In this document: positions 21,931 to 30,247 of the stretch, piece after piece | How the letters are laid out: each line of letters begins with the position of its first letter | Numbering within the stretch: the first letter of the stretch is position 1 | Assembly: GCF_009914755.1 (NCBI RefSeq) | Contig: NC_060929.1 | Origin: the human T2T-CHM13v2.0 reference genome, Homo sapiens | Direction: 5' to 3' (one strand) | DNA length: 64,000 bases | The notes under the pieces: model-generated | What the model was told of the DNA's origin: nothing | The model's input: only the letters and a program-made list of their open reading frames with translations | Databases searched by the model: none | Position numbers and translations under genes: made by a program

Positions 21931-21971
21931 ATCATTCAGTTTTTTCTTTTCCTTTTTTTTTTTTTTTTTTT

Positions 21972-22684
21972 TGAGCAATAAAGCTTTTTAATCACCTGGG
22001 TGCAGGTGAGCTGAGTCCAAAAAGAGAGTCAGCAAAGAGTGGTGGGATTATCATTAGTTCTTATAGGTTTGGGATAAGTGGTGGAGCTAGGAGCAATTTT
22101 TTGTGGTCAGGGGGTGGATCTCACAAAGTACATTCTCAAGGTCGGGGAGAATATTACAAAGTACCTTCTTAAGGGTGGGGGAGAATATTACAAAGTACCT
22201 TCTTAAGGGTGGGGGAGAATATTACAAAGTACCTTCTTAAGGGTGCGGGAGAATATTACAAAGTACCTTCTTAAGGGTGGGGGAGAATATTACAAAGTAC
22301 ATTCTCAAGGTCGGGGAGAATATTACAAAGTACCTTCTTAAGGGTGGGGGAGAATATTACAAAGTACCTTCTTAAGGGTGCGGGAGAATATTACAAAGTA
22401 CCTTCTTAAGGGTGGGGGAGAATATTACAAAGTACCTTCTTAAGGGTGGGGGAGAATATTACAAAGTACCTTCTTAAGGGCTGGGGAATATCGCAAAGTA
22501 CGTTATCGCAAGGGCGGGGAGGGTGTATTGTTATAAGGTCAGTTGATCAGTTAGGGTGGGGCAGGAACAGATCACAATGGTGGAATGTCATCTTTCATAG
22601 TTCTTCAGTTGCTTCAGGCCATCTGGATGTATACATGCAGGTCACAGGGGATATGATGGCTTAGCTTGGGCTGAGAGGCCTGAC
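21972..22684 (-). promoter_or_regulatory. LTR7 (type I) U3-R without U5
   Basis: GTCAGGCCTCTCAGCCCAAGCTAAGCC start; TATAA at 22065-22061; ATTAAA poly(A) signal. Confidence 0.9.
22123..22525. repeat. 34-bp tandem array (12 units) inside LTR7 U3
   Basis: Unit ACAAAGTACCTTCTTAAGGGTGGGGGAGAATATT, counted directly. Confidence 0.95.
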
Positions 22685-23876
22685 TTCTTATAGTAATTAT
22701 TAATTATTCCTGTCTTCTTATATTAATAAGAAAAACAAAACAAAATGGTGATGAAGTGTTGTGGCGGCGAAAATGTTTGGCGATGGTATGGAGAGATAAT
22801 GGGCGATGTTGCTCAGGGCTGCTTCAAGTGGGATTAGGGGCGGTGTGGGAACCTAGAGTGGAAGAGATTAAACTGAAGAAAGATTTGGGGGTAAGGGGTG
22901 GTGGTGTGGGGTTGTTAGAGGGAGCATTTGTACAGAATGATTGGTGATGGCCTAGATGTGGTTTTGCATGAATTGAGAAACTAAACAGAAGACACGAGGA
23001 CCAAATAAAAGAAGGAGAAAAATAGGTACTAAAGGACTAAGAATTAGGAGTACCCAGGACATCCAATTAGAGAGTGTCCAAGGGGGTCCAGCATAGTTGT
23101 TTGCTTGGCTAGCGAGTTTTTGGGTTTTATCCTTGAGTTTTTTTTTTTATGTTGTCATATACCAGGCCAGATTGATTTAGGTAAAAATAACACTCTTCAT
23201 TTAAAAATATACAGAGTCTCCTTTTTATTTTTGTAGCATTAAGTCGGGTCCTCAGCAATTTTGGAGGAAAGAGAAACGCAAAGCCAGCAATTGTTTGTTA
23301 AAGAAGGATTAGAAATGGCTAGGAGAGAGTGAGTAAGATTGACAGTGTGGTGGAGATAGCTGGGGAGAGGTAGAGGGTGGCATAGAATAAGAGTGAATAT
23401 AAAAGTAAAGAATAGGACTTCATCAGGGTGAAAGTATTTGTGTGTGCCCTATCAGCAAAGATCATCTATCCACTCCAAGAGGGAGTCAAGAGTGGCAGAT
23501 TGGGGAAAGTACCAGGAGATATCTGCTACGATGGTTTGGAGGAAAAGTGTAAACCGGCAGTGTAAACAAGGGCAGGGCATATACGAGTAGTTAAGAATGG
23601 TGAATAGGAGTATGACTAGACAGAAGATGGTAGGGATGACAAGTTTTTGGGGTGCAGTCCAAGTAGTGGGGGTGACTGCGTTGTAAAGAGTACTCTGCAT
23701 TGTAAAGAGTAGGGTAAGGAAGAAGAGACCTAATAAAAATGAAAGGATGTATTAGGCTTATAAGGGTTACTATTATCCTTTAGGAATGCAGGTGAGTTTA
23801 AGGGAAGTAGGAGAGAGTACTTGCGACTTCCAGGCGGAAGAAGAGAAATCAGGCTGTCTGTCTGATGGGCACAGCT

Positions 23877-24865
23877 TTACTCTGGGATGATGAACCTAAA
23901 GGGAGGAGGGTCCTGCAGATGAACAGCTGTTGGGGTACTATAGATGACTAAGTGGGGTCCGGTCCACCGAGGTTGTAGAGTTTGAGGGGTCAGATTTTTA
24001 ACAAGAACTGATCGATGAGCTAGGGTGTCTTCATATGGCTGGGAATCTAGGGTAGGCAAAAGAAGATTAGCAGCTCAGCAAATTTCCTGTCTAGCTTGCT
24101 GGAGGACTGGAAGATAATCACCTAGAGGGCTGGTGTCTGGAATGAGACTGGGGCCTAATCAAAAGGAGCGTCCATACAGGAGCTCAAATGGGCTGTACCC
24201 TGTAGCATCCCGAGGACAGGCCCGAATTCTGAGAAGGACAAGTGGTAAAAGTACTGTCCAGTCGTTTTTAAGCTGGAGGCTGAGCTTGGTGAGGTGTGTC
24301 TTTAAAAGACCATTAGTTCTTTCTACCTCTCCTGAGTATTGAGGGCAATAAGGAGCATGAAGTTTCCATTGAATGCCCAGGGCCTGGGAGACTGCCTGAG
24401 TGACTTGACTAATAAAGGTCGGTCCATTATCGGGCTGTATAGAGGTGGGAAGGCCAAACGGAGGAATTGTCTGACAGAAGGGAGGAAATGACCGTGGTGG
24501 CCTCATACCCTGTGGGAAAGGCCTCTACCCATCCAGTGAAAGTGTCTACCCAGACCAAGAGGTATTTTAGTTTCCTGACTCGGGGCATGTGAGTAAAGTC
24601 AATTTGTCAGTCCTGGGTAGAGGCAAATCCCCAAGCTTGATGTGTAGGGAAGGTGGGGGGGCCTGAACAATCCCTGAGGAGTAGTAGAATAGCAGATGGA
24701 ACATTGAGAAGTGATTTCCTTGAGGATAGATTTCCATGATGGAAAGGAAATGAGAGGTTCTAAGAGGTGGGCTAACGGCTTGTAACCTACATGGAAGAGG
24801 TTATGAAAGGACAACAGAATAGAATGGGCCTGTGAGGCTGGAAGGAGATATTCTCCTTGGTCCAA
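23877..24865 (-). pseudogene. HERV-H integrase relic
   Basis: IPPFGLPTSIQPDNGPTF...SGEVERTNGLLK (D and E of the DDE motif), HNLFH...CSIC zinc finger, WTGPH (GPY/F-like); frames broken. Confidence 0.9.
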
Positions 24866-25260
24866 GAACTGTTTGCCTTGTGTGGGAAGAGATTAATAGG
24901 TGGAAGTTTCAGTGGGAGAGTAGGTGGGAGTGACCGATGAGAAGGAGACAAACTGGCTGTGAGGGACAGAAGTTGGAACACTAGCTGCTTTTTAGCTACC
25001 TTATTAGCATAAACATTGTCCTGAGCGATGAGGCCACTGCAAGGTGGCCCTTGCAGTGAATGACTCCAGCTTCCTTTAGAAGTAAAGCAGCCTTGAGAAG
25101 AGTTTTCATTAAAGAGGCATTAATGATGGAGGGCCCTTGCCTAGTGAGGAAACCTCTTTCTGCCCATATAACAGCATGGTGGTGCAGGATATGGAAGGCA
25201 TATTTAGAGTCAGTATAAATATTGATGCATAGTCCCTTTGCAAGAATGAGGGCCTGAGTT

Positions 25261-28438: not shown

Positions 28439-29330
28439 TCAGTCTTCAGCTGTTGAGCCAAGGAGATCTGGAAAGGAGTCGGCCAAGGAACGTTGGGTTT
28501 GAGCTCTGGGAGCTTTAGGAGTGGCAGCTATGTGAGTTGGACAGTCCGACTTCCAGTGGGGGCCCGCACAGACAGGGCACAGCTTAGGAGGAATCCCGGG
28601 CTGCAGGCATTCTGAGGCCCAGTGGCCAGGCTTTTGGCATATGAAGCAAGGTCCACAGGGAGGTTTTGAAGGAGCCCCTGGGAGATGTGGCTTGGATGTT
28701 CTGAAGTTTTTGTATGCTGGAGACAGGGTTTTGGGTTGTCTTACAGTGGAGGCAGGTAGCTGTAACTCAGAGATGCATTGTCGCTTGGCTGCTTCTTCTC
28801 TATTATTGTACACCTTGAAGGTGAGGTTAATTAAGTCCTGTTGTGGGGTTTGAGGACCAGAATCCAATTTTTGGAGTTTTTTTCTAATGTCGGGAGGGGT
28901 CGGGTAATAAAATGCATATTGAGAATAAAACGGCCTTCTGTCCTCTCTGGGTCTTGGGCAGTAGAGCATCTAAGGGTTGTTGTCAAATGGGCCATGAACT
29001 GGGCTGGGTTTTTATAGTTGATGAAAAAGAAAAAAGAGCCTAAATGCTAACTGATTTGGGAGAGGTCGGTTAAAGAAAAAGGAGCATTAACCGTGACTAT
29101 GCCTTTAGCTCCAGCCACCTTTCTAAGAGGAAACTGTTGGGCAGGTGGGGGAGGGCTAGTCCCAGAACGAAGCTGTAAACCAGACCAGGTGTGAGGAGGG
29201 GAGGTGATAGAATGATTATAGGGTGGGGGAGGGGAGGCTGAGGAAGAATTGGGACCTGGCTACACCTGGCGCGGAGCAGCCTGGGGAGGAGGGGAGAGGT
29301 CAGATGAGTCCGTAGGAAAGGAGGATTCAA
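28439..29330 (-). pseudogene. HERV-H gag relic
   Basis: PDIRKKLQKL...FKVYNNREE; zinc knuckles CFICQKPGHWASEC and CPVCAGPHWKSDC. Confidence 0.9.
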
Positions 29331-29807
29331 AGGACTCAGAGCTTGGAGTGGAGACTGAAGGAACAGACAGGAGAGAAAGAGGAAAGATTTGGGAAGAGTC
29401 GCATTGGGAGCAGAGATTAGGAAGCGACCGATGTGTAAAAGAATGCCTGGACGTCAGGCACCTCAGACCATTTGCCCATTTTTCGACAAAAATTATCTAG
29501 ATCTTGTATAAGGATCTTGTATAGGATAGACAAATCGAAAGTGCCATTCTCTGGCCACTTGGAACTACTGTCGAGTTTGTATTGGGGCCAAGCAGTATTG
29601 TAGAAGAAAATAAGACATTTAAGTTTAAGTTCTTGAGAGAAGAAGGGGGAATGGAGGGCAGAAGTTTAGTGAAAAGACCGCTTACCCGATTTGAAATTGG
29701 TGAGATGTTCCTTGGGCTGGCTGGTCTGAGGACCCAAGGTCGTAGGTGGATCTCCTCATGGAGTGAGGGCGAGGACAGGGGGCTGGTCTCCCAAAGGAGT
29801 CCTCCTG

Positions 29808-29826
29808 TCCCAGGTTTTCAGCACCA
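29808..29826 (-). promoter_or_regulatory. Primer binding site, tRNA-Phe-like
   Basis: TGGTGCTGAAAACCTGGGA vs Phe TGGTGCCGAAACCCGGGA and His TGGTGCCGTGACTCGGAT. Confidence 0.8.
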
Positions 29827-29938
29827 AATGTCACGCACATCCACATGAAGATACCGCCAAACAGGCTTTGTGTGAGCAATAAAGCTTTTTAATCACCTGG
29901 GTGCAGGCGGGCTGAGCCGGAAAAGAAAGTCAGCCCAG

Positions 29939-30247
29939 TTTTTTCTTTTTTCCTTTTTTTTTTTTGAGGTAGAGTCTCACTCTGTCACCCAGGCTGGAGT
30001 GCAGTGGTGCAGTCGCAGCTCACTGCAACCTCTGTCTCCCGGATTCAAGCAATCCTTGTGCCTCAGCCTCTGGAGTAGCTGGGATTCCATGTGTGCACCA
30101 CCACGCCTGGCTAATTTTTGTATTTTTAGTAGAGACGGGGTTTCACCATGTTGGCCAGGCTGGTCTCAAACTCCTGGCCTCAGGTGATCCGCCTACCTCG
30201 GCCTCCCAAAGTGCTGGGATTACAGGGGTGAGCCACCTTGCCCAGCC
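29939..30247 (-). mobile_element. AluS whose A-tail received the HERV-H retrocopy
   Basis: Alu consensus; probable TSD ATCATTCAGT (21931) / ATTGTTCAGC (30250) now ~8 kb apart. Confidence 0.85.

What the first reader, a model, noticed from the sequence alone, without database searches (positions are those of the whole stretch)
21937..29949. Full-length HERV-H RNA apparently retrotransposed by L1 (processed retrocopy, not a provirus)
Seen: the 5' end has only R-U5 and starts at GCTGAC, which in the 3' LTR lies 32 nt downstream of TATAA. The 3' LTR has U3-R only and is cut just after ATTAAA...TTGCTCA, followed by a 20-nt poly(A). Both ends carry an identical 14-bp A/T-rich TSD (CAGTTTTTTCTTTT), unlike the 5-bp TSDs of the solo LTR7s in this window. 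Known: this structure defines L1-mediated processed copies, common for HERV-W; to my knowledge it is seldom reported for HERV-H. Inference: a ~6.3 kb (excluding nested insertions) unspliced genomic RNA was copied end to end by ORF2p in the germline or early embryo.
Basis: partly seen in the sequence, partly recalled or inferred. Interest (0 to 1): 0.85.

Follow-up and report, generated by a model that had tools for sequence, protein, structure and literature searches.

The report
L1-made processed copy of HERV-H RNA
This 8-kb stretch is a dead copy of a whole HERV-H retrovirus RNA that the LINE-1 machinery, not the virus, pasted into the genome, and it is one of at least a dozen such copies, a class the reviews reserve for HERV-W.

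Summary
On the minus strand the element starts at GCTGAC (first base of R, 32 nt after TATAA in its own 3' LTR) and has no U3. It ends at TTGCTC(A) of the 3' R, has no U5, and is followed by A20. Both ends carry CAGTTTTTTCTTTT.

Refinements:
- The duplication extends, with a 2-nt indel, through the A-tail of a flanking Alu, about 28-30 bp in all.
- Two untemplated G precede R, probably from the cap.
- That Alu's own target-site duplication is split by the insertion, which serves as an internal empty-site test.
- The primer-binding site is tRNA-Phe-like, not His.
- Length is about 7.2 kb without the nested Alu and nested solo LTR7, not 6.3 kb.

The L1 interpretation is supported. The copy is not unique. 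In the same genome, 61-62 LTR7 R-end/poly(A) junctions exist (reversed-pattern control 0). Of the 25 I examined, 14 start at the R start, two of them spliced and one R-only. Six are 5'-truncated with 9-19-bp TSDs, and 5 are unresolved.

I found no paper describing HERV-H processed copies, and one review calls HERV-W the sole L1-mobilised group. I rate it a new member of a known kind, of moderate interest.

The parts
29937..29965 (-).
   Evidence: 28 matched columns with one 2-nt gap against 21937-21964
29935..29936 (-). two G not templated by the LTR (the 3' LTR reads CTCTTT before GCTGAC) and not part of the TSD; probably copied from the RNA cap
   Evidence: 1 extra G in 3 and none in 1 of the 4 other copies found without regard to G
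29873..29934 (-). 5' R (GCTGAC...ATTAAA...TTGCTCA), with no U3 upstream
   Evidence: 55 of 61 positions identical to the 3' R
29829..29872 (-). U5 (44 nt, ends GTGACA)
   Evidence: aligns with the U5 of the solo LTR7s
29808..29826 (-). primer-binding site, tRNA-Phe-like (16 of 18 plus one inserted base; both mismatches are C-to-T at CpG)
   Evidence: against the tRNA-Phe and tRNA-His genes located
29680..29689 (-). intact leader splice donor (CGG|GTAAGC, exon side ends at 29686), showing the copy is unspliced here; it is used as the donor of exon 1 of the predicted lncRNA LOC105379162
   Evidence: and the hub annotation
28439..28969 (-). gag remnant with nucleocapsid zinc knuckle
   Evidence: PF00098, E 1.1e-07
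27946..28350 (+). nested solo LTR7 in opposite orientation, 5-bp TSD CAGGG (27941-27945 and 28351-28355); a later integrase-type event
27493..27792 (+). nested Alu with A20 tail and 12-bp TSD GAATGTTGTCCA (27481-27492 and 27793-27804)
24996..25259 (-). pol remnant: RNase H
   Evidence: PF00075, E 5.7e-07
23877..24892 (-). pol remnant: integrase (zinc-binding, core and C-terminal pieces in three broken frames)
   Evidence: PF17921, PF00665, PF18697
22952..23448 (-). env remnants
   Evidence: PF00429, E 2.2e-05 and 0.0027
22034..22685 (-). U3 of the 3' LTR (starts AGTCAGGCC after a purine-rich tract), with a 34-bp tandem array at 22123-22501 (10.7 copies) and TATAA at 22061-22065
21973..22033 (-). 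3' R with ATTAAA (21987-21992), ending TTGCTC; no U5 follows
21953..21972 (-). A20 run: poly(A) tail and/or duplicated Alu tail
21937..21952 (-). 3' copy of the TSD (the 14-mer plus CC); with the A-run it matches the 5' copy over 28 columns
29966..30247 (-). pre-existing flanking Alu whose A-tail was the target. Its own TSD is AAAAGCTGAACAATG at 30249-30263 and AAAAACTGAATGATG at 21930-21944. The second copy is whole only beyond the HERV-H 3' end.
   Evidence: 12 of 15 identical

Best explanation
A full-length, unspliced, capped and polyadenylated RNA was transcribed from an HERV-H-group provirus. That provirus had an LTR7-family LTR and a Phe-type primer-binding site.

L1 ORF2p copied the RNA by target-primed reverse transcription. 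The nick fell at the junction of an older Alu's body and its A-tail (+ strand ...TTTT/GAGG).

The product has these features:
- It starts at the transcription start (G of GCTGAC) with two cap-derived G.
- It ends at the LTR's poly(A) site.
- It lacks the U3 promoter at its 5' end.
- It is flanked by a duplication of about 28-30 bp that includes the Alu tail.

It was dead on arrival. It later received a solo LTR7 and an Alu, and its U3 carries a 34-bp array of 10.7 units.

Shown: the anatomy, the split Alu TSD, and the sibling copies. Inferred: L1 as the enzyme, the cap origin of the G, and a heritable (germline or early-embryo) setting.
For: - Ends map to the RNA ends. GCTGAC lies 32 nt after TATAA, and cleavage falls 14-15 nt after ATTAAA.
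- There is no U3 at the 5' end, no U5 at the 3' end, and no TG...CA termini.
- The TSD is 14 nt exact, or 28 columns with one gap. The two solo LTR7s in the window have 5-bp TSDs.
- The flanking Alu's own TSD (12 of 15 identical) is interrupted exactly at the HERV-H 5' end and resumes after the 3' TSD copy. The two flanks were therefore once contiguous.
- GG before R is templated neither by the LTR (CTCTTT) nor by the target.
- gag, pol and env remnants are colinear and the leader splice donor is intact.
- The same architecture recurs in the genome. There are 38 places with R end plus 10 or more A, and 61 allowing 2 mismatches, with 0 for the reversed control pattern in both searches.
- Of the 25 of 62 places examined, 14 start at the R start. 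TSDs are visible in 13 of these; the R-only copy shows only an imperfect match. Six are 5'-truncated with TSDs of 9-19 bp.
- Two siblings lack introns whose borders read GT...AG in a full copy.
- By eye, most sibling TSDs follow TT, AT or similar and begin with A-rich sequence. This corresponds to TTTT/AA, TCTT/AA or TTCT/AA on the nicked strand.
Against: - No orthologous empty site could be examined, because no other primate genome is available here.
- The TSD is low-complexity. 103 of 3717 random T-rich pairs of the window reach its composition-weighted score.
- The A-run may be mostly duplicated Alu tail, so a poly(A) tail is not independently shown at this locus.
- The inferred nick (TTTT/GA) is a variant of the L1 consensus (TTTT/AA).
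- A TSD of about 30 bp is longer than usual.
- The Alu's own TSD match is only 12 of 15.
- L1 involvement rests on signatures alone.
Confidence: 0.92

Rival explanations
1. An ordinary integrase-made provirus that later lost exactly the U3 of its 5' LTR and the U5 of its 3' LTR by two deletions.
For: HERV-H proviruses and solo LTR7s are common here. A published catalogue lists this locus as a provirus-like chain with a '5LTR'.
Against: - Both breakpoints fall on the RNA ends to the base.
- An A-run and a TSD of 14 bp or more replace the expected 5-bp TSD.
- The split Alu TSD shows the outer flanks were adjacent.
- Thirteen other loci share the same two end points.
- The catalogue's '5LTR' extends about 1.25 kb beyond the true end into flanking DNA, and its PBS call scored 0.
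Confidence: 0.02
2. A cDNA of the HERV-H RNA was captured at a DNA break or an endonuclease-independent site, or was made by a reverse transcriptase other than L1 ORF2p. No L1 endonuclease nick was involved.
For: The target is an A/T-rich tract where breaks and slippage are frequent. The inferred nick is TTTT/GA, not TTTT/AA.
Against: Endonuclease-independent insertions usually lack TSDs and are often 3'-truncated. Here there is a long TSD, an intact 3' end and priming on a T-run. Sibling copies sit at TTTT/AA-like sites with 11-19-bp TSDs.
Confidence: 0.04
3. The end repeats are chance matches between two unrelated A-rich tracts, so the element's true ends and mode of insertion are undetermined.
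For: 2.8% (103 of 3717) of random low-complexity pairs score as high.
Against: - The repeat abuts both RNA ends within 0-2 nt.
- Only 3 of 7936 slid placements share 14 nt or more.
- The repeat contains ordered C, A, G, C and CC landmarks.
- The Alu TSD test is independent.
- The RNA-end architecture does not depend on the TSD.
Confidence: 0.02

Closest known systems
HERV-W processed pseudogenes made by L1 (Pavlicek et al. 2002 and Costas 2002 recalled, not held here; Grandi et al. 2016, PMC5016936, passages; Grandi & Tramontano 2017, PMC5537654, abstract and passages)
   Same: R-U5...U3-R-poly(A) architecture, long TSDs, L1-type target sites, frequent 5' truncation, and promoterless copies.
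   Different: - The family is HERV-H (LTR7-type LTR).
- Such copies appear to be a small minority of a family of about 1000 elements, whereas they are a large part of HERV-W.
- The 2017 review calls HERV-W the sole HERV group mobilised by L1.
Cellular processed pseudogenes / retrocopies
   Same: L1-mediated copies of Pol II transcripts, with a poly(A) tail and TSDs. Extra 5' G in full-length copies is a feature I recall from the L1 literature.
   Different: The template is a retroviral genomic RNA, unspliced in this copy. Intron loss, the usual hallmark, is seen only in two sibling copies.
Canonical HERV-H proviruses and solo LTR7s, for example 27946-28350 and 39692-40116 in this window
   Same: R and U5 are 88% identical, and the first 68 nt of U3 are 94% identical. 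The internal gag-pol-env remnants are shared.
   Different: Those have complete U3-R-U5 LTRs, TG...(C)A ends and 5-bp TSDs. This copy has none of these.
Spliced HERV-H copies in genomic DNA (Goodchild, Freeman & Mager 1995; recalled, not seen here)
   Same: Genomic copies of processed HERV-H RNAs.
   Different: As I recall, those keep LTRs and were attributed to retroviral-type retrotransposition. The spliced copies found here (chr22:28.20M, chr12:114.00M) have R-start/R-poly(A) ends and 12-15-bp TSDs.

Membership tests
L1-mediated processed retrocopy | Colinear with the mature RNA: starts at the transcription start and ends at the poly(A) cleavage site | tested here: met
   GCTGAC lies 32 nt after TATAA. 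The end falls 14-15 nt after ATTAAA. There is no U3 at the 5' end and no U5 at the 3' end.
L1-mediated processed retrocopy | Poly(A) tail at the 3' end | tested here: inconclusive
   A20 is present, but up to 12 of the A may be duplicated Alu tail. Sibling copies have 13-37 A next to non-A-rich targets.
L1-mediated processed retrocopy | Target-site duplication of roughly 7-20 bp or longer | tested here: met
   14 nt exact, or 28 columns with one 2-nt gap.
L1-mediated processed retrocopy | Insertion at an L1 endonuclease site (TTTT/AA-like) | tested here: inconclusive
   The inferred site is TTTT/GA at the Alu body/tail junction. Most siblings read TTTT/AA, TCTT/AA or TTCT/AA by eye.
L1-mediated processed retrocopy | Empty orthologous or ancestral site with one copy of the TSD | not testable with these tools
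   No other primate genome is available. The surrogate is the flanking Alu's own TSD, which is split by the insertion.
HERV-H group | LTR7-family LTR and HERVH-type internal sequence | tested here: met
   - 88-94% identity to the solo LTR7s of the window in R, U5 and the U3 start. The central U3 is of another variant.
- 74-92% identity to the internal parts of the sibling copies.
- Vargiu et al. Table S1, row rvnr 1981, labels the locus HERVH (noncanonical; Repbase HERVH/LTR7).
HERV-H group | Primer-binding site for tRNA-His | tested here: not met
   The PBS is Phe-like (16 of 18 plus 1 indel) and aligns poorly to His. This is a known minority state: 57 of 532 canonical HERVH chains use F (PMC4724089, PBS section). 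I therefore file the copy as HERV-H by sequence, Phe-PBS variant.
HERV-H group | Gammaretrovirus-type gag-pro-pol-env order | tested here: met
   Zinc knuckle, RNase H, integrase and TLV_coat hits lie in that order on the minus strand. No RT domain hit was found among the 28 ORFs scanned.
Integrase-made provirus | Two complete LTRs, TG...CA termini and a 4-6-bp TSD | tested here: not met
   contrast

The most novel reading that the evidence does not exclude
HERV-H, not only HERV-W, left a sizeable and overlooked cohort of L1-made processed copies in the human genome.

- There are at least 61 R-poly(A) junctions.
- At least 14 copies start at the R start. They include unspliced, singly spliced, doubly spliced and R-only RNAs.
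- These fossils record the exact transcription start, poly(A) site and splice isoforms of HERV-H RNA in cells of the ancestral germline or early embryo where L1 was active.
- They also mean that some catalogued HERV-H 'proviruses' are promoterless from birth.
Probability: 0.5. Interest if true: 0.5.

Novelty: new member of a known kind. Interest (0 to 1): 0.4.

Why it matters
- It corrects a textbook-level statement that HERV-W is the only HERV group copied by L1.
- It fixes the HERV-H transcription start and poly(A) site from genomic fossils.
- It shows that HERV-H RNA and L1 activity coincided in heritable cells millions of years ago. This fits HERV-H's present-day expression in pluripotent cells.
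- It warns that HERV-H catalogues and expression studies mix promoterless retrocopies with true proviruses. This locus is listed as a provirus-like chain with a spurious 5' LTR, and it hosts the first two exons of a predicted lncRNA although it has no U3 promoter.

Tried and rejected
- Pavlicek et al. 2002 could not be read. Whether it mentions HERV-H copies therefore stays open.
- Eight accepted literature searches found no description of HERV-H processed copies. The library lacks most subscription journals, and bioRxiv supplements are closed.
- Two 2026 preprints that segment LTRs into U3-R-U5 do not address the question (passages only).
I sampled instead, so 37 of 62 places remain unexamined and the census is a lower bound.
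- The second TSD null is contaminated by homologous Alu ends and gives only an upper bound on chance.
- Pfam found no reverse-transcriptase domain among ORFs of 60 aa or more. I did not pursue this.
- I could not assign the LTR7 subfamily or date the copy against a family reference, because no repeat library is available and building a consensus is barred.
- The 5' ends of five junction loci were not resolved within the sequence held: chr1:37.08M, chr11:16.99M, chr3:183.88M, chr3:78.95M and chr5:29.04M.
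Full report
**What is there**

The element lies on the minus strand.

- Reading 5' to 3', a flanking Alu ends in A12-GG-A6-G-A6-CTG.
- Two G follow, and then R begins at GCTGAC (29934).
- R runs to TTGCTCA (29873) and contains ATTAAA.
- A 44-nt U5 follows (to 29829), then TT and a primer-binding site.
- At the other end, the 3' LTR begins at about 22685 (AGTCAGGCC after a purine-rich tract).
- That LTR has TATAA at 22065-22061 and GCTGAC at 22033, 32 nt downstream.
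- It has ATTAAA at 21992-21987 and stops at TTGCTC (21973).
- Then come A20, GG, A4-G-A6-CTG, and AATGATG.

The two R differ at 6 of 61 positions, mostly at CpG sites.

**Interior**

- Pfam hits on minus-strand ORFs run in this order: gag zinc knuckle, RNase H, three integrase pieces, then two env pieces. All are broken by stops and frameshifts.
- No reverse-transcriptase domain was hit among the 28 ORFs scanned.
- The leader splice donor CGG|GTAAGC is intact, so the template was unspliced there.
- There are two later insertions: an Alu (27493-27792, 12-bp TSD) and a solo LTR7 in opposite orientation (27946-28350, 5-bp TSD CAGGG).
- From R start to R end the copy is 7962 nt, or about 7.2 kb without these two insertions.
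- The U3 holds a 34-bp tandem array of 10.7 units. In other loci of the same U3 variant, the matching stretch is only 84-143 nt.

**The duplication**

- The 14-mer is exact at both ends.
- The match continues: 28 columns with one 2-nt gap, running into the T12 (+ strand) that is the flanking Alu's tail.
- The most economical reading is a nick on the + strand at TTTT/GAGG, the junction of Alu tail and Alu body. This gives a TSD of about 30 nt.
- The A20 at the 3' end is then part TSD and part poly(A) tail.

Chance controls:
- A shared word of 14 nt or more occurs in 3 of 7936 placements of the same geometry.
- 103 of 3717 random T-rich pairs reach the composition-weighted score. That null includes homologous Alu ends and is therefore harsh.

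**An internal empty-site test**

- The flanking Alu (29966-30247, minus strand) has its own TSD. AAAAGCTGAACAATG lies just upstream of its 5' end.
- The partner, AAAAACTGAATGATG (12 of 15 identical), is whole only beyond the HERV-H 3' end (21930-21944).
- On the HERV-H 5' side, only its first 8 nt are present before the HERV-H begins.
- The Alu was therefore there first, the two outer flanks were once contiguous, and the HERV-H copy entered between them.

**Extra G**

- The two G before R are not in the LTR. The 3' LTR reads CTCTTT before GCTGAC.
- They are not in the target either, where CTG is followed by AATGATG.
- Untemplated 5' G on full-length L1-made copies is attributed to copying of the cap. 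This point is recalled, not checked here.

**Family**

- R and U5 are 88% identical to the solo LTR7s of the window, and the first 68 nt of U3 are 94% identical. The central U3 is a different variant.
- The primer-binding site matches the complement of the tRNA-Phe 3' end at 16 of 18 positions plus one inserted base. It does not match tRNA-His (tRNA genes located).
- Vargiu et al. 2016 (PMC4724089, PBS section) report 386 H, 57 F and 19 K among 532 canonical HERVH chains. This is a known minority state.
- Their Table S1 lists this locus as row rvnr 1981: hg19 chr5:126004750-126011979, minus strand, noncanonical HERVH, with reversed LTR7 in the middle.
- The row's 18-nt 'PBS' string is unique in the window, at 29719-29736.
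- The row gives a '5LTR' that reaches about 1.25 kb beyond the true 5' end, and it gives no 3' LTR.

**Is it unique? No**

The window's own genome can be searched.

- The R end followed within 0-5 nt by ten A occurs at 38 distinct places. These are 94 raw rows that I collapsed, with 0 for the reversed control pattern.
- A fixed pattern with up to 2 mismatches gives 61 places, again with 0 for the control.
- With one more place, the union is 62.
- I examined 25 of the 62. Seventeen were seen through 3-kb loci, seven of them extended by 8 kb.
- The other eight were chosen because a G+GCTGAC R start (76 places) lay 0.8-9.6 kb upstream on the same strand. For six of these, only the two junctions were fetched.

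Result for the 25 examined:
- 14 start at the R start.
- 6 are 5'-truncated, with TSDs of 9-19 bp.
- 5 are unresolved.

The 14 copies that start at the R start are:
- this locus
- chr5:122.99M
- chr6:81.69M
- chr2:199.74M
- chr5:12.43M
- chr8:116.94M
- chr10:110.45M
- chr11:81.06M
- chr8:89.87M
- chr16:68.77M
- chr16:76.43M
- chr22:28.20M
- chr12:114.00M
- an R-only copy at chr11:5.69M

Further details:
- TSDs of 11-16 nt, some with one mismatch, flank the 13 copies longer than R.
- Among the five copies found without regard to G, the number of extra G is 2, 1, 1, 1 and 0. Their own 3' LTRs have T or C at that position.
- The four other fully sequenced copies carry a His primer-binding site at 17-18 of 18 positions. 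They show 0-3 R-to-R mismatches, against 6 here. This locus is therefore probably the oldest of the five.

**Spliced siblings**

- The chr22 copy (2.8 kb) lacks a segment whose borders in a full copy read AAG|GTAAAG and CTCTAG|G.
- The chr12 copy (0.8 kb) joins three segments.
- For chr12, three of the four borders read canonically (CAG|GTAAGT, C|GTAAC, AAG|G). The fourth reads GG in the comparison copy.
- These are copies of spliced RNAs and confirm an RNA route for the class.

**Mechanism**

The combination matches L1 target-primed reverse transcription and nothing else that I know of. It consists of:
- RNA-colinear ends
- A-runs
- long A-rich TSDs after T-rich sequence
- variable 5' truncation
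- cap-type G
- spliced forms

Integrase-made HERV-H insertions in the same window look different.

**Literature**

- Grandi & Tramontano 2017 (abstract) call HERV-W the sole HERV group specifically mobilised by L1.
- Thomas et al. 2018 exclude L1-made copies only for HERV-W (passage).
- Eight accepted searches gave no paper describing HERV-H processed copies.
- Pavlicek et al. 2002 is not held.
- 'Unreported' therefore remains uncertain.

**Verdict**

- The refinements are a longer TSD through an Alu tail, cap G, a Phe-type PBS and a length of about 7.2 kb.
- The locus is a new member of a known kind (L1-made HERV processed pseudogenes) and one of a cohort.
- A specialist would be mildly surprised, not astonished. 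The value lies in the cohort and in correcting catalogues.

Noticed in passing
window 22123-22501: A 34-bp tandem array (10.7 units, 94% matches) sits inside the U3 of the 3' LTR. Other loci with the same U3 variant match it over only 84-143 nt. The array was therefore expanded here or in the source.
   Followed up: partly
window 29808-29826: The primer-binding site is tRNA-Phe-like (16 of 18 plus 1 indel), although the element is HERV-H by sequence. The four other fully sequenced processed copies have the His site.
   Followed up: yes
window 29686-29844 and 28367-28467: Exon 1 of the predicted lncRNA LOC105379162 starts inside U5 of this promoterless copy and ends at the HERV-H leader splice donor (GG|GTAAGC). 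Exon 2 (ccag|ATC...AGG|gtaagt) lies 12 nt from the nested LTR7's TSD. A RefSeq enhancer (29987-30581) lies just upstream, over the flanking Alu. What drives the transcript is unknown.
   Followed up: partly
window 3479-4221: Another HERV-H fragment on the + strand. 3479-4085 is 88% identical to the internal part 26217-26801 of the element. An LTR7 R-U5-like piece follows at 4119-4221.
   Followed up: no
window 57795-57994: A further LTR7-like piece on the minus strand, 73-81% identical to the LTRs here.
   Followed up: no
L007 (chr11:5.69M): A retrocopy of R alone: GCTGAC...TTGCTCAC plus A18, about 70 nt, next to an Alu. It implies a short RNA that started and was polyadenylated within one LTR.
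   Followed up: partly
L055 (chr22:28.20M) and L054 (chr12:114.00M): Processed copies of singly and doubly spliced HERV-H RNAs, with 12-15-bp TSDs and one extra G each.
   Followed up: yes
L004 (chr11:16.99M): A U3-R-poly(A) unit that begins exactly at TGTCAGG, the LTR start, inside an Alu and lacks U5. The origin of its 5' end is unexplained.
   Followed up: no
rows, e.g. chr1:104.42/104.43M, chr9:35.02/35.03M, chr13:53.34/53.35M: Eight pairs of G+GCTGAC matches lie 4.7-8.1 kb apart on one strand. They look like proviruses with a templated G before R in both LTRs. An extra G alone is therefore not proof of a cap origin.
   Followed up: no
window 21790-21929: The left flank is a short Alu-like monomer (about 135 nt plus an AAAT-repeat tail) on the minus strand. 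It directly abuts the TSD of the right-flank Alu.
   Followed up: no
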